A stretch of DNA of 12,819 bases from a virus (Duplodnaviria; Heunggongvirae; Uroviricota; Caudoviricetes), in the IMG/VR virus record IMGVR_UViG_3300030021_000014; one strand, 5' to 3'. This document shows positions 1 through 12,819 of this stretch, piece after piece. Position 1 is the first letter of the stretch, and each line of letters starts with the position of its first letter. The notes beneath the pieces are model-generated. The model was not told the DNA's origin and did no database searches. It saw only the letters and a list, made by a program, of their open reading frames with translations. The position numbers and the translations under genes were made by a program.

Positions 1-218
1 GGGGAACGGTGGCAACACAAAAGGGAGCTGATGCTGGATATGCCTTACCATTTGCTTTTCCCTATGCAGGCTTATTTGCGACCGGAAACCGTGGAACATC
101 TGGCTACAATGCCGCGATGAATGTGCGTATTGCCAGCAGAACGCATATCAGTATTCAGAACTGGTCGCCATCCGGAGAGGGCACCGAAGATTGTTGTTTT
201 ATCGCGCTGGGGTATTAA
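1..218 (+). CDS. Tail fiber protein, C-terminal variable domain of an alternative (silent-orientation) cassette; 5' end lies upstream of the window
   Basis: Frame is open from the window edge to TAA at 216-218; the M at 9 in the ORF track is a GTG codon inside a longer frame. C-terminal motif FIALGY resembles the YLALGI end of the minus-strand fiber (659..1234). A tail fiber assembly gene follows 3 nt downstream. Confidence 0.6.
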   Translation, partial: GTVATQKGADAGYALPFAFPYAGLFATGNRGTSGYNAAMNVRIASRTHISIQNWSPSGEGTEDCCFIALGY

Positions 219-220
219 GA

Positions 221-631
221 ATGAATAAATTTTATAAAGGCTCTTTCTATCCGAAAGCACTAAAAGAGGTATATATCAGCGCCGGTTCATGGCCTGAAAA
301 TGGCGTTGATGTTGATGATGAAACAATGGCAATTTACACAGGCGTAGCGCCACAAGGCAAAACGCTGGGGGCTGATAAAAATGGTAATCCTGCGTGGATT
401 GATATCCCGCCACTCTCCGCTGAACAACAGATTATTCAGGCTGAACAGAAAAGAACGGTATTGCGTTCTATGGCTGATAAGGAAATAGTCTGGAGACAGG
501 ATGCTTTTGATGCGGAAATCGCGACGGCAGAAGAAACCGCCGCGTTATCTGAATGGAAAAAATACCGGGTGCTGCTGATGCGCGTTGATACCTCAAAAGC
601 CCCCGATATTCTGTGGCCTCCGCAACCGTAA
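221..631 (+). CDS. Tail fiber assembly chaperone (Tfa family)
   Basis: ATG at 221 (MNKFYKG...), 136 aa, starts 3 nt after the fiber stop. Size and sequence character match recalled enterobacterial prophage Tfa proteins. The ORF-track start at 191 is an upstream in-frame extension overlapping the fiber stop. Confidence 0.8.
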   Translation: MNKFYKGSFYPKALKEVYISAGSWPENGVDVDDETMAIYTGVAPQGKTLGADKNGNPAWIDIPPLSAEQQIIQAEQKRTVLRSMADKEIVWRQDAFDAEIATAEETAALSEWKKYRVLLMRVDTSKAPDILWPPQP

Positions 632-634
632 CAA

Positions 635-655
635 AAAGCCGCTGTTTGCGGCTTT
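635..655. terminator. Bidirectional intrinsic terminator between the convergent tfa and tail fiber genes
   Basis: AAAGCCGC (635-642) / loop TGTTT / GCGGCTTT (648-655): 8-bp stem flanked by an A-run on one side and T-rich sequence on the other. It fills the 27-nt gap between the tfa stop (631) and the fiber stop (659). Confidence 0.55.
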
Positions 656-658
656 CTC

Positions 659-1234
659 TTATATCCCCAGCGCAAGATAGGTGTAGCTGTCAATATTGTT
701 TGCCGTACCGTTTCCACTCCAGCCATAGAGACTAAACCCGGTCTGCGTGTAATTAACAGATGTTACATACCGATGGTCAGCTGTGATTTTATGCGGAAGA
801 ACGATAAATGGGGTGACATTAAACGGTTTTTTAAAGCTTACCGTAGCATTGGTCGCCTGAACCGAGCCGTGCCCCCATTGCAGCAGCAATCCTCCCGGTA
901 ATTCAAAGTACCCATCAGCCTCCAGTAACCGTTCTCCAAATCCAAGGTTTTCGAGAGCCGTTTTCACCGTGCCATCCGATTTGATATCGCCAAACGGATT
1001 CTTGCGGCTTAACAGCAGCGCGCGAAGTGCGGTAAGTAACTGGTCGTGCCGCCCCTTCTCCAGGCTGGCACCGGATGCCTCCACCACGCTGCAAAGTTCC
1101 TCCTGCAACATGTCAAAGTAGTCATCATCCAGATCGGTGGCAGGCGTGCCGGTCTGGGGGTTACCACGGGTAAAACCGTTCTTACCCGCGCCGAACTTAT
1201 CCTTCTGCGCGGTTTTCGTGTCTATACGATGCAT
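659..1234 (-). CDS. Tail fiber protein (191 aa) with constant N-terminal half and variable C-terminal half
   Basis: ATG at 1234 with GGAG 6 nt upstream; follows the gp48-like gene stop by 3 nt. A Hin-family crossover-like site sits mid-gene at 932-957. Confidence 0.8.
932..957. other. Candidate Hin/Gin/Pin/Cin-family serine-invertase crossover site (hix/gix-like) inside the tail fiber gene
   Basis: TTCTCCAAATCC-AA-GGTTTTCGAGAG: two imperfect inverted 12-bp half sites around a 2-bp AA core. About 20 of 26 positions match the recalled hixL sequence TTCTTGAAAACCAAGGTTTTTGATAA. It encodes residues ~93-100 (LENLGFGE) of the 191-aa fiber, at the constant/variable junction. Confidence 0.6.
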
Positions 1235-6295: not shown

Positions 6296-8131
6296 TTACC
6301 TGCCAAAGCGCGTATAGCCAACATCATGGCTGACATCAAAACCGCTGGATCGCGTTTCCATAACCCGCATACCCGGAGGCGAATTCACAAAAGAGACCTT
6401 GATCTCACCATCAACTTTTGGCGCAGAAGCTTTGTTAATCATGAAGGGATTCGGGCCTGTGGCACCGGAGGCGTTGTTTGACTGAGCCGGATCTACCGCC
6501 TGATAAGGTGTGTATCCCCGTGCCGGTATTCCCGTCCCATAAGCATCATAAGCACCCGCGCCCCACTGCGCAGAGTTAATGGCATCGACCGTGTCACCGG
6601 AACTGTCGGTAAACCACTCAATAATTGGCTTCAGTTTGTCCCACATATCCTGAAACCACTTAACAACCGGTCCCCAGTTATTGATTACCATCCCCAGCGG
6701 CGACCAGGCAAAAACCTTCTTCAGAAGTTCCCAGCCAGCCTCAAAATAAGGACCAATGGTTTCCCAGAGCTTCTTGAAATAAGGTCCGACAACATCCCAG
6801 TTAGTGATAATTAATCCCGCAGCCAGGGCTATCGCCGTCGCAATCATTCCAATCGGCGTCATCGACATGATCCTGCTGACAATACTGATGGCACCGCCAA
6901 CGCCCATCAATCCCAGTTTCAGAATCGCAAGACCGGCAGCAAGCCCGACGACGCCGCGAATAACCCGGGGATTTTCATCCGCAAACTTCGTGAATTTTTC
7001 CCCTAACTCCCCCAGCCATTGCGTGATATTTTTGGCGTCACCAGAAAATGCGCCGCCAATAGCCGCAAGGCCGTTAGTTGCGGTCCCCGTCATTGCCTCC
7101 CACAGGTTGGACAGCGTACCAAGCTGGGCCTGAACACGTTTATTCAGGCTGGCCTGTTTATTCATCTTCTGCTGGATCTGATCGTAGCCATCCTTTCCTT
7201 TATCGATTAGTGCATTGACCACCTGAAGGGTTTCGGCATCATCACCAAATATTGCCTTAAGTACACCTGTTCGCTTAACGTCGGTCAGTTTTCGCAGCTT
7301 TGCCAGTTGCCTGAACATGTTATCAAGACCGCCAAAACTTCCTTTGCCGTCAGTAAAATCGAGCTGTACCCCGAGTTTCTGGCGGGCCATGATTTTATTG
7401 ACGTCCCTGATTTTCTTAACGCTTAATCCGGACTGGATAACTTTTCGCAGGGCGTTACCTGCCGACTCCCCGTTCATCCCCATCTGATCCATCATGACGC
7501 TGATGGGGGCAAGGCTCTGTGCAGCCTGAAGACCGTCCTTGTTCACCATCTTCAGAACAGAGCTGGTTTTAGTGAAGAAGGACAACATGTTGGTATCGTC
7601 AACACCCAGATAAAACGCCTTCTGGATAGTGTCGAACAGCCCCATCATGTCTTCTGACGCCGTTCCGGTAGCATCCTGCATCTTTGCAGCAAACTCAGCA
7701 GCCGCTTCCGGTGTTTTTTTCAGTTGTACCGCAAGATAAGCTGTCGCTTTACCCACACCGCCAAGAATGTTTTCTGCCGGGATCCCCTGACGCACCAGCA
7801 TCTGCATCATGTTCTGGAAATCAGCCGTTGTACCGGGTAGCTGGTTACCCAGGCCAATAGCCAGTTTATTGATGTCCTGAAAGCTCTTTCCGACCTCGCC
7901 GTTCGCATCCATCATGGCGACTTTCAGCCCGGTGGCGGCGTTTTCCTGATCGGCATAAGATTTCAGGGAAAGCGTCAGACCCGCTGCCAGTCCGCCACCA
8001 AGCGCCAGCCCACCCTGTGACGCTTCTTCCGCCTGGCGTTTAAATCCCCGGATTTTCTTTTGCATTTTCGACAGCGCGGGAGAAAGCCTGTCGACACCGG
8101 TGATCAACGCCTTAAGCTCAAATTCCGCCAT
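6296..8131 (-). CDS. Tail tape measure protein
   Basis: 611 aa, Ala/Gly/Leu/Gln-rich with a hydrophobic segment. Sits between the frameshifted chaperone and the baseplate genes; AGGAG upstream of ATG at 8131. Confidence 0.85.
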   Translation of the reverse strand: MAEFELKALITGVDRLSPALSKMQKKIRGFKRQAEEASQGGLALGGGLAAGLTLSLKSYADQENAATGLKVAMMDANGEVGKSFQDINKLAIGLGNQLPGTTADFQNMMQMLVRQGIPAENILGGVGKATAYLAVQLKKTPEAAAEFAAKMQDATGTASEDMMGLFDTIQKAFYLGVDDTNMLSFFTKTSSVLKMVNKDGLQAAQSLAPISVMMDQMGMNGESAGNALRKVIQSGLSVKKIRDVNKIMARQKLGVQLDFTDGKGSFGGLDNMFRQLAKLRKLTDVKRTGVLKAIFGDDAETLQVVNALIDKGKDGYDQIQQKMNKQASLNKRVQAQLGTLSNLWEAMTGTATNGLAAIGGAFSGDAKNITQWLGELGEKFTKFADENPRVIRGVVGLAAGLAILKLGLMGVGGAISIVSRIMSMTPIGMIATAIALAAGLIITNWDVVGPYFKKLWETIGPYFEAGWELLKKVFAWSPLGMVINNWGPVVKWFQDMWDKLKPIIEWFTDSSGDTVDAINSAQWGAGAYDAYGTGIPARGYTPYQAVDPAQSNNASGATGPNPFMINKASAPKVDGEIKVSFVNSPPGMRVMETRSSGFDVSHDVGYTRFGR

Positions 8132-8542
8132 GTGTGCGTTTCTCCTGCTCTATCCTGTTTGCCTGACTGACCAGCAAGGGAATTTCACTGATCGGCATAT
8201 TCAGCAATTCGAAAGGATTAATGCGCCAGTAGCTGGCGCAGTCAAAGAAGCGATCAGTGAGGTATTCAGCCGTCAGGCCTGGAGGAAAAAACCAGCCACA
8301 AGCCACGCCGCTGCATTCAGGTCTGCCGGAGACATCTGGTCGACAGAGCTTTGCGGCACTTTCGCCAGCCGCACAATGTATTTCGACACCACATGCGCCA
8401 GAAGTCTGACTGACTCATCCTGATTCATCTGGTAGGGATACCCCAGCTCGCGGACATCCTTCCCGGTGGGTTCATCAAACTCCAGTACGGAGAGTGTCTC
8501 ACCATGAGCGATAATCGGTTTCTTTAACTCAAGCTCTTTCAT
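8118..8542 (-). CDS. Tail assembly chaperone, -1 frameshift fusion product (G-T / E-E' analogue)
   Basis: Slippery heptamer T_TTT_TTC on the minus strand (plus coordinates 8285-8291) lies 3 codons before the 0-frame stop. The -1 frame stays open for about 57 more codons to a stop at 8118-8120, 11 nt into the tape measure gene. Confidence 0.55.
8273..8542 (-). CDS. Tail assembly chaperone (short, in-frame product)
   Basis: 89 aa; sits between the tube and tape measure genes, the conserved position of lambda G / P2 E-type chaperones; TAATG coupling to the tube gene. Confidence 0.75.
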   Translation of the reverse strand: MKELELKKPIIAHGETLSVLEFDEPTGKDVRELGYPYQMNQDESVRLLAHVVSKYIVRLAKVPQSSVDQMSPADLNAAAWLVAGFFLQA

Positions 8543-11620: not shown

Positions 11621-12005
11621 TGTTGCCTCCGTGACTCTGCCTACATTCGCCCAGCTCCGTACACTCCAGCAGCAGAAAGCGCCGCGCCCCGTTCAGATCG
11701 CGCTGACGTTTCACCCGGTACACACTGTCACCGCAGACCACCTCATAATCAGCGGTGATCCCCCGGCGGTAACGAATGGTGATGTAATGGGTGATGGCGT
11801 CCCCGGTCTGCGCGGTTTCCTGCCAGGTGGTGGCACTGGTCTGGATAACCTTCGCCCATGTCCGGAACGTAACCGGGTATTGAGGCTCCACGCCAAAGTT
11901 ATCCGCGGGCATATCCACCCGCAGGCGGATCAGGACGCGTTTATTCAGTTCACCGGGGTCCGGCAGAATGTAGGTTGCGCTGGTCTGCGCCTGACGAATT
12001 TTCAT
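11595..12005 (-). CDS. Head closure / head-tail adaptor protein
   Basis: 136 aa; ATGA overlap with the connector gene; conserved connector-closure-gp10 order of HK97-like head modules. Confidence 0.65.
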   Translation of the reverse strand: MKIRQAQTSATYILPDPGELNKRVLIRLRVDMPADNFGVEPQYPVTFRTWAKVIQTSATTWQETAQTGDAITHYITIRYRRGITADYEVVCGDSVYRVKRQRDLNGARRFLLLECTELGECRQSHGGNNDDFLFAR

Positions 12006-12325
12006 TGCGGAAAGTACCTGTACGGGCCGACAAGCCAGCCAAAACTCTGCGGCATGTCGAGTTTCTCCACTTCCGTAACCGACGAGCGGTTTTCGTAAAA
12101 ATGGCTGATAAGCATCAGCATCCCCAGACGAATATCATCCGGCAGGTGCAGCCCGTCCGGATCGCTGTCCGGAATGGTTTCATCCGGTGCATAGAGCTTC
12201 CGGTTCAGATACGTTTCCGTCCGCTTTTGTGCCGCACATGCCAGCAGTTGCAGATGGCGGTCATCAGTATCGAAATCCTCATCCAGCCGGAGTTGGGCTT
12301 TAATCTCTTCCATTGTCAGAAGCAT
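12002..12325 (-). CDS. gp6-like head-tail connector protein
   Basis: 107 aa; N-terminus MLLTMEEIKAQLRLD resembles the recalled gp6-like connector signature; AGAGGG upstream. Confidence 0.7.
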   Translation of the reverse strand: MLLTMEEIKAQLRLDEDFDTDDRHLQLLACAAQKRTETYLNRKLYAPDETIPDSDPDGLHLPDDIRLGMLMLISHFYENRSSVTEVEKLDMPQSFGWLVGPYRYFPQ

Positions 12326-12327
12326 AC

Positions 12328-12528
12328 TCAGCCCTCTTTACTGGTCGTGGCTTTTTTCTCTTTTGCCGCTTTACTGCTTTTTGCACTGATTCCGCGCTCT
12401 GCTAACCCGGCCTGAAGTGCAATCTCCTGCACCCGGGCAGGAAGCGCCCCGTCGTCATACTCACCGGCCCGAATGACCTCAACACGCATACCGTCCGGTG
12501 ACCATTTCAGATCTTGTTTCAGGATCAT
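12328..12528 (-). CDS. Hypothetical small head-module protein with lysine-rich C-terminal tail
   Basis: 66 aa ORF between the capsid and connector genes; its stop abuts the connector start. The RBS is weak and I do not recognise a family. Confidence 0.45.
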   Translation of the reverse strand: MILKQDLKWSPDGMRVEVIRAGEYDDGALPARVQEIALQAGLAERGISAKSSKAAKEKKATTSKEG

Positions 12529-12550
12529 GATTCTTCACCCGTCAGAACAG

Positions 12551-12570
12551 GGGGCGCGGTTCCGCGCCCC
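12551..12570 (-). promoter_or_regulatory. Perfect GC-rich hairpin just after the major capsid stop codon
   Basis: GGGGCGCG-GTTC-CGCGCCCC: 8-9 bp all-GC stem, 7 nt after the capsid stop and 22 nt before the next ATG. No clean U-tract follows on the minus strand (CUGUUCUG). Confidence 0.4.
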
Positions 12571-12577
12571 TGAGTGA

Positions 12578-12819
12578 TTACGCCGCTGCAATCTTCAGCA
12601 GTTTGATGGCCTGCGAATCGACCAGCATCCCGCCGGTGCGCTTGGTGGTATAAAAACCGACAAACGGTTTATTGGTGTACGGGTCACGCAGAATGCGGGT
12701 GCCGATACGGTCAACGATGGTGTAACCCCGTTTGAAGTTACCAAATGCAATGGCTTTCGCATCAGCGGCGATATCCGGCATCTGTTCGTTTTCAGCGATA
12801 CCGTAACCCGCCAGAGAGG
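12578..12819 (-). CDS. Major capsid protein (HK97 fold), C-terminal portion; 5' end beyond the window
   Basis: Open frame runs to the window edge. C-terminal sequence ...DPYTNKPFVGFYTTKRTGGMLVDSQAIKLLKIAAA resembles recalled HK97-type capsid C-termini; lies immediately upstream of the connector genes. Confidence 0.65.
   Translation of the reverse strand, partial: SLAGYGIAENEQMPDIAADAKAIAFGNFKRGYTIVDRIGTRILRDPYTNKPFVGFYTTKRTGGMLVDSQAIKLLKIAAA

What the first reader, a model, noticed from the sequence alone, without database searches (positions are those of the whole stretch)
12551..12570. Perfect all-GC hairpin directly after the major capsid gene
An 8-9 bp uninterrupted G/C stem sits 7 nt after the capsid stop codon and 22 nt before the next gene. 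It lacks a clean downstream U-tract, so it is not a classic intrinsic terminator. Its placement after the most abundantly needed structural gene suggests a 3' stabilising stem-loop or partial terminator that sets capsid-to-connector stoichiometry.
Basis: seen in the sequence. Interest (0 to 1): 0.35.

Follow-up and report, generated by a model that had tools for sequence, protein, structure and literature searches.

The report
Stem-loop after the phage capsid gene
This is the local copy of a long-noticed, terminator-like RNA hairpin that sits just after the major capsid gene in lambda-, HK97- and P22-type phages; here it has lost most of its U-tail, and a near-identical copy in a Salmonella prophage shows no drop in RNA across it, so it is ordinary and probably has little effect on gene dosage.

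Summary
The genes lie on the minus strand. The late mRNA reads UAA, 7 nt, GGGGCGCG-GAAC-CGCGCCCC (12570..12551, -17.4 kcal/mol), then 22 nt to the AUG of a 66-aa gene. All-GC 8-bp hairpins are expected 0.05 times per shuffled window.

The window is an SfIV/SfII/SfI/ST64B-type prophage late operon, found in 1041 of 5426 complete E. coli genomes.

A hairpin at this position is the rule. Among 56 non-redundant relatives, 79% have one, against 10% of size-matched coding windows. The stems are unrelated in sequence and many carry a canonical U-tract. Database records annotate the equivalent feature in HK97, SfV (both "putative terminator") and P22 ("stem-loop"), and lambda has one after gene E.

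This lineage has a stronger stem but a decayed tail (CUGUUCUG).

Published RNA-seq of the ST64B orthologue shows no fall in RNA after the capsid gene (57 to 76 and 67 TPM). In the same dataset, the U-rich hairpin of phage BTP1 gives a twofold fall.

Best reading: a terminator-type hairpin that is at most very leaky and is read through by Q-modified polymerase. The claim that it sets stoichiometry is not supported for this variant. Interest is low.

The parts
12578..12819 (-). 3' end of the major capsid gene (HK97-fold), which runs off the window; stop TAA at 12580..12578
   Evidence: Pfam PF05065 Phage_capsid, E = 3.6e-22. 99% identical to the SfIV major head protein gene.
12551..12570 (-). 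Hairpin in the sense RNA: GGGGCGCG (12570..12563), loop GAAC (12562..12559), CGCGCCCC (12558..12551); 8 G-C pairs
   Evidence: -17.4 kcal/mol; 0.047 expected per shuffled window; stem unpaired probability about 0.
12548..12572 (-). Possible extended stem: CA (12572..12571) pairing with UG (12549..12548) across a 1-nt C bulge at 12550. In SfIV-type copies without the extra C it is a clean 10-bp stem
   Evidence: SfIV form -21.6 kcal/mol; window form -18.4 kcal/mol, with the extension left unpaired in the predicted fold.
12543..12550 (-). Degenerate U-tract CUGUUCUG (4 U in 8, first base C)
   Evidence: not called as terminator-like; tail score 2.53, against 4.1-4.2 for lambda, HK97, P22 and BTP1.
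12535..12540 (-). Shine-Dalgarno-like GGGUGA of the next gene, 6 nt before its ATG
   Evidence: Read from the sequence. Relatives have GGAG/GAGG at the same place.
12328..12528 (-). 66-aa gene of unknown function (Sb7-like, phrog_1020), the first gene after the hairpin
   Evidence: Annotated as sb7 in ST64B. Not annotated in the SfIV RefSeq record.
12002..12325 (-). gp6-like head-tail connector (adaptor Ad1), the second gene after the hairpin
   Evidence: Pfam PF05135, E = 9.8e-10.

Best explanation
The hairpin forms in the late mRNA (minus strand) immediately after the capsid stop codon. It is this prophage's version of the post-capsid stem-loop of HK97-like and lambdoid late operons, an intrinsic-terminator-type element.

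In many relatives the stem is followed by a U-tract and should release part of the polymerases. In the SfIV/ST64B lineage the stem has grown to 8-10 G-C pairs and the U-tract has decayed to (C)UGUUCUG. Here it is at most a very leaky terminator.

During lytic growth the late operon is transcribed by polymerase modified by the phage's Q-type antiterminator, which reads through it, so RNA levels do not change measurably across it. Any remaining action would be on unmodified polymerase (stray transcription in the lysogen), or as a nuclease-resistant 3' end for the few transcripts that stop or are cut there.

Shown: the structure, its position, its recurrence in relatives, the weak tail, and the absence of an RNA drop in the orthologue. 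Inferred: read-through by Q-modified polymerase, and any residual termination or insulation.
For: 1. A stable sense-strand hairpin lies in the main non-coding gap of the operon.

2. The position recurs. Of 56 non-redundant relatives (capsid identity 100% to 41%), 79% have a simple hairpin of -9.5 kcal/mol or better in the spacer, against 10% of size-matched windows in the capsid gene (Mann-Whitney p = 5e-13). The median distance is 8 nt from the stop and 17 nt to the next start.

3. The stems are unrelated between genera: GGGGC/GCCCC, CCGGGAGC, GGCGGC, GCCCUUUAUU and GUGCCCGC.

4. Tails are U-enriched on the sense side (3.95 U in the 8 nt after the stem against 2.45 A in the 8 nt before it, p = 2e-4). 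18 of 44 have at least 5 U in 8, for example Serratia CAGGGGC-UUCG-GCCCCUG-UUUUUAAUUGGAG.

5. The HK97 and SfV records annotate a putative terminator at this position and the P22 record a stem-loop 'similar in location to stem-loops in phage HK97 and phage lambda'. Lambda has UGGCCC-UUCG-GGGCCA-UUGUUUCUCU after gene E.

6. The top pair is G-C here, A-U in phi467-type copies and U.G in ST64B.

7. SfIV and ST64B both encode Q-like antiterminators.

8. ST64B RNA-seq shows no drop across the hairpin, while BTP1, with a U-rich tail, drops about twofold.

9. The tail score is 2.5 here, against 4.1-4.2 in lambda, HK97, P22 and BTP1, and 4.0 for the T7 terminator at 7562-7595.
Against: - There are no transcript 3'-end data for this phage. 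The RNA-seq evidence comes from an orthologue in Salmonella, at per-gene resolution and low expression, and the two downstream genes are short (201 and 324 nt), which can inflate TPM.
- About 40% of hairpin-bearing relatives also lack a U-tract (18 of 44 have 3 or fewer U in 8). That fits a role of the hairpin itself, not termination.
- Among 80 near-identical copies the stem is at least as polymorphic as synonymous sites (8 of 16 stem columns vary, against 27 of 100 third positions). About half of the single changes break a pair, so no purifying selection is visible at shallow depth.
- BTP1 also has a Q-like protein and still shows a drop, so Q read-through alone does not explain the ST64B result.
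- In uninduced ST64B the downstream genes are not lower than the capsid gene either, which gives no support to an insulator role.
Confidence: 0.5

Rival explanations
1. It is an mRNA 3'-end stabiliser. After endonucleolytic cleavage downstream, or rare termination, the GC stem blocks 3'-to-5' exonucleases. The portal-protease-capsid message then outlives the connector and tail message.
For: - The hairpin is very stable (-17 to -22 kcal/mol) and is kept where the U-tract is lost. 18 of 44 relatives have 3 or fewer U in 8.
- All 15 variant forms folded (14 from near-identical copies plus ST64B) keep -13 kcal/mol or better.
- This would work even with antiterminated polymerase.
- ST64B capsid RNA is 1.3-1.7 times that of the protease and about 1.3-1.6 times that of sb10 and sb11.
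Against: In ST64B the two genes just after the hairpin are as abundant as the capsid gene or more so (76/93 and 67/92 TPM against 57/74). The step down comes about 500 nt further on, not at the hairpin. No half-life data exist.
Confidence: 0.18
2. It is a translational insulator. The stable stem between the capsid stop and the next Shine-Dalgarno sequence stops ribosomes that finish the heavily translated capsid gene from sliding on and re-initiating. Output of the downstream gene is then set only by its own start site.
For: - The placement between stop and Shine-Dalgarno is tight and conserved (median 8 nt and 17 nt).
- The hairpin is kept without a U-tract in many lineages, often abutting the Shine-Dalgarno sequence (SfV, Mangrovibacter).
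- There is no RNA-level effect in ST64B.
- Seven Xenorhabdus relatives without a hairpin have the genes only 15-23 nt apart.
Against: No direct evidence. The same geometry is expected for any terminator squeezed between two genes. The U-enrichment of the tails points to transcription, not translation.
Confidence: 0.12
3. It is a relic. An ancestral terminator has lost its function, and the palindrome persists through recency and through template-switch mutation, which tends to keep or restore symmetry.
For: - The tail is decayed.
- There is no RNA effect in ST64B.
- The stem is as polymorphic as synonymous sites.
- There are signatures of palindrome-driven mutation: an inverted loop (GAAC to GUUC) in L042, and G-run/C-run length variants in all four combinations.
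Against: The stem is longer and stronger than in relatives, not eroded. All 15 variant forms folded (14 from near-identical copies plus ST64B) still fold at -13 kcal/mol or better. Hairpins recur at this site in non-homologous capsid modules (lambda, P22, HK97, SfV).
Confidence: 0.15
4. It is a DNA-level element: a palindromic protein-binding site, a recombination or mosaic joint, or a terminator for a plus-strand transcript.
For: - It is a perfect DNA palindrome apart from the loop.
- Mosaic joints lie nearby. phi467 and 606R7 diverge from about 12452, and SfV has a different capsid module.
Against: - The joints are not at the hairpin.
- Stem sequences differ completely between relatives, so no sequence-specific binding site is conserved.
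- The plus strand has no T-tract and no nearby plus-strand gene.
- It is not a dispersed repeat: the median is one place per genome among the E. coli genomes that carry it.
- There is no Rfam match.
Confidence: 0.05

Closest known systems
Post-capsid stem-loops or putative terminators of lambdoid and HK97-like phages: HK97 after gp5, P22 after gene 5, lambda after E, SfV after orf5
   Same: The place is the same: the short spacer between the major capsid gene and the first head-completion gene, inside the single late operon. The hairpin is GC-rich, on the sense strand, a few nt after the stop and just before the next ribosome-binding site. The HK97 and SfV records call it a putative terminator and the P22 record a stem-loop. 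P22 and BTP1 even share the CAGGGGC...GCCCCU core.
   Different: The model-phage versions have shorter stems (6-7 bp, -11 to -16 kcal/mol) and U-rich tails (tail score 4.1-4.2). This one has 8-10 G-C pairs (-17 to -22 kcal/mol) and a poor tail (score 2.5-3.3). The SfV hairpin has another sequence, follows a different capsid gene and abuts the Shine-Dalgarno sequence.
Intra-operon terminator after the procapsid module of phage L and P22-like phages (PMC8022706)
   Same: It is a terminator-like hairpin inside a Q-type antiterminated late operon. The authors say that the roles of such elements 'are not known' and propose partial termination, or stopping spurious non-antiterminated transcription.
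   Different: In BTP1, a P22-like phage, RNA falls about twofold after the coat gene. In ST64B, the orthologue of this window's element, it does not.
T7 T-phi terminator after the major capsid gene 10
   Same: It is a partial terminator directly after the most abundant structural gene, with lower RNA downstream (PMC6938266).
   Different: T-phi acts on T7 RNA polymerase and a measured drop follows it. Here the host polymerase transcribes and no drop is seen in the orthologue.
Intrinsic terminators of E. coli polymerase with an interrupted U-tract, such as the T7 terminator at 7562-7595 (the T7 early terminator TE, from my own knowledge)
   Same: A strong GC stem of 8 bp with a tetraloop, followed by UUUCUG..., which resembles the UUCUG of this lineage.
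   Different: The T7 element starts with three U and has a second U-run (UUUAUA), giving a tail score of 4.0. The window's tail starts with C and has no second run, giving 2.5.
Intercistronic hairpin stabilisers, such as the REP element between malE and malF (from my own knowledge)
   Same: A stable hairpin without a U-tract after the more highly expressed upstream cistron of an operon.
   Different: It is not a dispersed repeat (one copy per prophage). The expected excess of upstream over immediately downstream RNA is not seen in ST64B.

Membership tests
Intrinsic (Rho-independent) terminator | GC-rich stem of about 5-14 bp with a 3-8 nt loop in the nascent sense RNA | tested here: met
   8 G-C pairs, GAAC loop, -17.4 kcal/mol, formed with probability about 1.
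Intrinsic (Rho-independent) terminator | U-tract of about 7-9 nt directly after the stem (at least 5 U in 8 in the scan used here) | tested here: not met
   The tail is CUGUUCUG: 4 U in 8, first base C. The scan did not call it. Tail score 2.53, against about 4.1 for lambda, HK97, P22 and BTP1 and 4.0 for the T7 terminator at 7562-7595.
Intrinsic (Rho-independent) terminator | Transcript 3' ends at the site, or less RNA downstream | tested here: inconclusive
   There are no data for this phage. In the ST64B orthologue, per-gene TPM does not fall (capsid 57.0/74.1; next genes 76.0/93.2 and 67.4/92.4). 3' ends were not mapped, and a loss below roughly 25% could not be seen.
Intrinsic (Rho-independent) terminator | Equivalent position in relatives holds canonical terminators | tested here: met
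   18 of 44 hairpin-bearing relatives have at least 5 U in 8. U-enrichment is on the sense side (p = 2e-4).
Post-capsid stem-loop of HK97-like and lambdoid late operons (a class defined by position) | Lies in the spacer between the major capsid gene and the next head-completion gene, on the sense strand | tested here: met
   7 nt after the capsid stop and 22 nt before the next ATG.
Post-capsid stem-loop of HK97-like and lambdoid late operons (a class defined by position) | Recurs at that position in related and in non-homologous capsid modules | tested here: met
   79% of 56 relatives, against 10% of control windows. Also seen in HK97, P22, lambda and SfV.
Post-capsid stem-loop of HK97-like and lambdoid late operons (a class defined by position) | Lies inside a late operon driven by a Q-type antiterminator | tested here: met
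   The Q gene lies outside the window. The 99%-identical phage SfIV has gp46 'anti-termination protein Q-like', and ST64B has STMMW_20151.
REP/BIME-type dispersed palindromes | Many copies scattered in intergenic regions of the host chromosome | tested here: not met
   A 201-nt query centred on the hairpin gives a median of 1 place per genome in the 1041 E. coli genomes that have it, always with the capsid gene.
Intercistronic mRNA stabiliser | The upstream segment is more abundant or longer-lived than the segment just downstream | tested here: not met
   In ST64B, the genes downstream of the hairpin are at or above the capsid level in all five conditions with capsid above 10 TPM. Half-lives were not measured.
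RNase III processing site (T7 R-site type) | Long duplex of about 20 bp, often with an internal loop | tested here: not met
   The stem is 8-10 bp only. The 20-bp criterion is from my own knowledge.
Any curated RNA family (Rfam 15) | Match to a covariance model | tested here: not met
   No hit at or near 12551-12570, even at E up to 1.

The most novel reading that the evidence does not exclude
The hairpin, not termination, may be the selected feature. It is kept, and even strengthened, in lineages that lost the U-tract because it acts on the finished mRNA. For example, it could be a barrier that uncouples translation of the very heavily translated capsid gene from the low-copy head-completion genes, or a processing and stability determinant. 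If so, the long-noticed post-capsid stem-loops of lambda, HK97 and P22, whose role is stated to be unknown (PMC8022706), would be translational or RNA-level dosage devices, not terminators.
Probability: 0.15. Interest if true: 0.45.

Novelty: new member of a known kind. Interest (0 to 1): 0.17.

Why it matters
It matters little on its own. The element is an unannotated copy of a feature already marked in the HK97, P22 and SfV records, and it sits in a prophage module carried by about a fifth of complete E. coli genomes.

The useful point is a natural comparison within one published dataset. BTP1 has a U-rich post-capsid hairpin and its RNA falls twofold. ST64B has a stronger stem with a decayed tail and its RNA does not fall. 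This suggests that such hairpins cannot all be read as dosage-setting attenuators, and that capsid excess in this phage type is probably set at translation.

The role of intra-operon terminators in antiterminated late operons remains formally open, and it could be tested cheaply with this pair.

Tried and rejected
1. An outer helix between UCACUC (just after the stop) and the Shine-Dalgarno GGGUGA. It appeared when the spacer was folded alone. It has probability 0.0 in a 193-nt context and is not conserved outside the lineage. Rejected.

2. A plus-strand terminator or antisense element. There is no T-tract and no plus-strand gene nearby. Rejected.

3. A known RNA family. Rfam has no match.

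4. Covariation as proof of RNA structure. Only the top pair varies (G-C, A-U, U.G, U-U). Among the one-off stem changes, four are C-to-U changes that keep a G.U pair, three are G-to-A and one is G-to-C, and those four break a pair. This gives no strand signal and no sign of selection. I therefore did not build a covariance model, because the stems of different genera cannot be aligned.

5. The viral-contig scan returned only copies 99-100% identical. It was useful for polymorphism and not for depth.

6. Literature. The SfV genome paper (PMC134923) is not held, and my guessed id for the P22 paper (PMC142878) found nothing. The SfIV paper shows its predicted terminators only in a figure. The ONT-cappable-seq papers I opened say nothing specific about terminators after the capsid gene.

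7. I recalled a sequence as phage 82 't500'. The search showed it is a T7 sequence at 7562-7595, annotated 'terminator'. I corrected this and used it only as a comparator.

8. d'Aubenton-Carafa or TransTermHP-type discriminants. I used only the tail-decay score, with the formula recalled from memory. I did not apply the thresholds, because I could not verify them.

Full report
**What is in the sequence**

All long ORFs of the window are on the minus strand. They form a head-completion and contractile-tail operon.
- The capsid gene's C-terminus matches PF05065 (E = 3.6e-22).
- Next come a 66-aa ORF, a gp6-like connector, a head-completion protein, a tail terminator, the sheath and the tube.
- The segment is 99% identical to Shigella phages SfIV and VIT_AJPSC, 96-97% to SfII and SfI, and 88% to Salmonella phage ST64B.
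- A 201-nt piece centred on the hairpin occurs in 1041 of 5426 complete E. coli genomes, including the type strain.

On the coding strand the RNA reads UAA-UCACUCA-GGGGCGCG-GAAC-CGCGCCCC-CUGUUCUGAC-GGGUGA-AGAAUC-AUG. The stem has 8 pairs, not 9.

**Is it more than chance?**

- It is the only all-GC perfect hairpin of 7 bp or more in 12.8 kb. Dinucleotide shuffles give 0.047 hairpins of 8 bp or more per window.
- It folds at -17.4 kcal/mol and is fully formed in a 193-nt context.
- It sits in a 49-nt spacer. Neighbouring gene junctions overlap or are at most 18 nt apart. The one larger apparent gap (8131-8273) is covered by the -1 frame extension of the tail chaperone.

**Relatives**

A scan of one genome per bacterial species with the full SfIV capsid protein gave 60 loci with 100% to 41% identity. 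I located each capsid stop and searched the spacer for simple hairpins.
- Of 56 non-redundant cases, 79% have a hairpin of -9.5 kcal/mol or better, against 10% of 336 size-matched windows inside the capsid genes (p = 5e-13).
- The hairpins lie a median of 8 nt after the stop and 17 nt before the next start. The loci are phylogenetically related, so the p-value overstates independence.
- The stems are clearly different in different genera: GGGGC-UUCG-GCCCC in Klebsiella, Citrobacter, Serratia and Erwinia; CCGGGAGC in Mangrovibacter; GGCGGC in Morganella and Xenorhabdus; GCCCUUUAUU in Gilliamella.
- Non-homologous capsid modules carry one too: SfV, P22, HK97 and lambda.
- Seven Xenorhabdus loci have no hairpin and a spacer of only 15-23 nt.

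The tails are U-rich on the sense side (3.95 U in the 8 nt after the stem against 2.45 A in the 8 nt before it, p = 2e-4). 18 of 44 have at least 5 U in 8, and some are textbook terminators (U8 in Gilliamella L049, UUUUUAAUUGGAG in Serratia L023). But 18 of 44 have 3 U or fewer.

**This is a known kind of feature**

- The SfV RefSeq record annotates 'putative rho-independent terminator' between orf5 (capsid) and orf6.
- The HK97 record annotates a putative terminator directly after gp5.
- The P22 record annotates a stem-loop after gene 5, 'similar in location to stem-loops in phage HK97 and phage lambda'. Other P22-like records call it 'RNA stem-loop' or 'terminator'.
- The phage L paper discusses exactly this element. 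[quoted passage not shown] It suggests partial termination, or stopping transcription that started without antitermination (PMC8022706).
- T7 T-phi after gene 10 is the classical case of a terminator after the capsid gene with a measured drop (PMC6938266).

**How this copy differs**

| Element | Stem | Hairpin energy (kcal/mol) | Tail score |
|---|---|---|---|
| Lambda, HK97, P22, BTP1 | 6-7 bp | -11 to -16 | 4.1-4.2 |
| SfIV, ST64B, phi467 and this window | 8-10 G-C pairs | -16 to -22 | 2.5-3.3 |
| This window alone | 8 G-C pairs | -17.4 | 2.53 (lowest of its group) |

The window is lowest because an extra C separates the stem from the first U. The same window ends its operon with a normal terminator (655..635, GCCGC-AAACA-GCGGC-UUUUUGUU). 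This host-phage pair therefore does use canonical signals where transcription must stop.

**Experimental evidence by proxy**

Owen et al. 2020 (PMC7067206, Table S5) give per-gene TPM for the prophages of S. Typhimurium D23580. The ST64B late genes are expressed after peroxide and nitric oxide shock. Values below are peroxide / nitric oxide, in TPM.

| ST64B gene | TPM |
|---|---|
| portal | 32.8 / 36.3 |
| protease | 36.6 / 43.8 |
| capsid | 57.0 / 74.1 |
| sb7 (201 nt) | 76.0 / 93.2 |
| sb8 | 67.4 / 92.4 |
| sb9 | 40.7 / 61.2 |
| sb10 | 42.8 / 49.5 |

- The capsid-sb7 spacer in D23580 is 50 nt, as in the ST64B reference, whose hairpin is GGGGCGCU-GAAC-GGCGCCCC-UGUUCUGA.
- There is no fall across the hairpin in any of the five conditions with capsid above 10 TPM. 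Short genes may be somewhat inflated, but correcting for that gives about equal levels, not a drop.
- The same table serves as a positive control. BTP1 (P22-like) has AGGGGC-UUCG-GCCCCU-UUCUUAUUUGAGG after its coat gene. Its RNA falls from 41.4 to 20.9 TPM (ESP), 24.2 to 13.4 (LEP) and 42.2 to 22.2 (oxygen shock).
- So a U-rich version attenuates about twofold in this host, and the U-poor version does not detectably attenuate.

**Evidence on selection**

Within this lineage only the loop-closing pair varies in a pairing-preserving way: G-C, A-U in phi467-type copies, and U.G in ST64B. A U-U form also exists.

Among 80 copies with 99-100% identical capsids:
- 8 of 16 stem columns are polymorphic, against 27 of 100 third-codon positions.
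- Single changes split about evenly between wobble-preserving and pair-breaking.
- I folded 14 of these variant forms, plus the ST64B form, and all 15 stay at -13 kcal/mol or better.
- An inverted loop (GAAC to GUUC) in L042, and G-run/C-run length variants in all four combinations, point to palindrome-driven mutation.

Conservation is therefore strong at the level of 'a hairpin is here' across distant phages. It is not detectable at the level of individual bases among close copies.

**Conclusion**

The best-supported reading is a terminator-type sense-strand hairpin, a member of the known post-capsid class. In this lineage it is at most very leaky. SfIV and ST64B encode Q-like antiterminators, so read-through in lytic growth is expected. 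This is inferred, not shown, and BTP1 shows that Q does not abolish attenuation at a good terminator.

The specific idea that it sets capsid-to-connector stoichiometry is not supported by the only available expression data.

The evidence does not exclude these rivals:
- a 3' exonuclease barrier
- a translational uncoupler between the capsid gene and the next gene
- a relic kept by palindrome dynamics

A DNA-level site is unlikely. Nothing here is surprising to a phage specialist. The open point is the general and still unresolved role of such intra-operon hairpins.

Noticed in passing
window 635-655: AAAGCCGC-TGTTT-GCGGCTTT lies between the convergent ORFs 191..631 (+) and 659..1234 (-). It is a canonical bidirectional intrinsic terminator, and its minus-strand tail is UUUUUGUU. 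It is probably the true end of the late operon. It contrasts with the U-poor hairpin after the capsid gene.
   Followed up: partly
window 8273-8306, slippery site 8285-8291 (minus strand): The 89-aa ORF 8273..8542 ends GGT TTT TTC CTC CAG GCC TGA. The heptamer T TTT TTC is followed by an overlapping -1 frame ORF (8118..8306). This looks like the programmed -1 frameshift of tail assembly chaperones (lambda G/GT type), located just before the tape-measure gene.
   Followed up: partly
window 8222-8240: A perfect 8-bp hairpin (TGCGCCAG-TAG-CTGGCGCA) lies inside the frameshift extension, about 45 nt after the slippery site. That is too far for a classical frameshift stimulator. Its role is unknown.
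   Followed up: no
window 12328-12528 (minus strand): The 66-aa ORF right after the hairpin (phrog_1020, unknown function, conserved K-W-S-P-D-G motif) is annotated as sb7 in ST64B. It is not annotated in the SfIV RefSeq record, which leaves an apparent 251-nt gap there. That record also labels the prohead protease 'major head protein'. P22 has a 69-aa ORF of unknown function (a different PHROG family) in the same place.
   Followed up: partly
window 12535-12540 with about 12494-12498 (minus strand): In a 193-nt fold, the Shine-Dalgarno GGUGA of the 66-aa gene is predicted to pair with UCACC inside the gene's own codons for W-S-P (unpaired probability about 0.01). This could damp its translation.
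   Followed up: no
L042 (Edwardsiella hoshinae contig), and L065-L144: One relative has the loop inverted (GGTTCC instead of GGAACC). The G-run and C-run occur as 4/4, 4/5 (this window), 5/4 and 5/5. These are signatures of slippage and template switching at a palindrome.
   Followed up: partly
window about 12452; L003 (phi467), H17 (vB_EcoM-606R7), L004 (SfV): There are mosaic joints near the element. phi467 and 606R7 share the capsid gene, the hairpin and the first ~75 nt of the 66-aa gene, and then switch to different head-completion genes and a different downstream (tail) module. SfV shares the connector genes but has another capsid gene, another hairpin and no 66-aa gene.
   Followed up: partly
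window 421-597 (+): A sub-threshold Rfam match to IS009 (33 bits against a gathering score of 117, E = 1e-4), inside or next to the plus-strand ORF 191..631.
   Followed up: no
H15 (OR844966, 'Enterococcus phage Efm 3-10'), L022 (Bacillota MAG), L016 (Martelella alba): Records labelled as Gram-positive or alphaproteobacterial carry this enterobacterial capsid module at 81-97% identity. This is probably contamination or mislabelling in the public records.
   Followed up: no
ST64B prophage in D23580 (PMC7067206, Table S5): The tail tube gene has 2-3 times the TPM of the sheath gene before it and of the tape-measure gene after it (122/132 against 46/59 and 36/41). The corresponding junctions in this window have no intergenic hairpin. 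This suggests differential RNA stability or an internal start.
   Followed up: no
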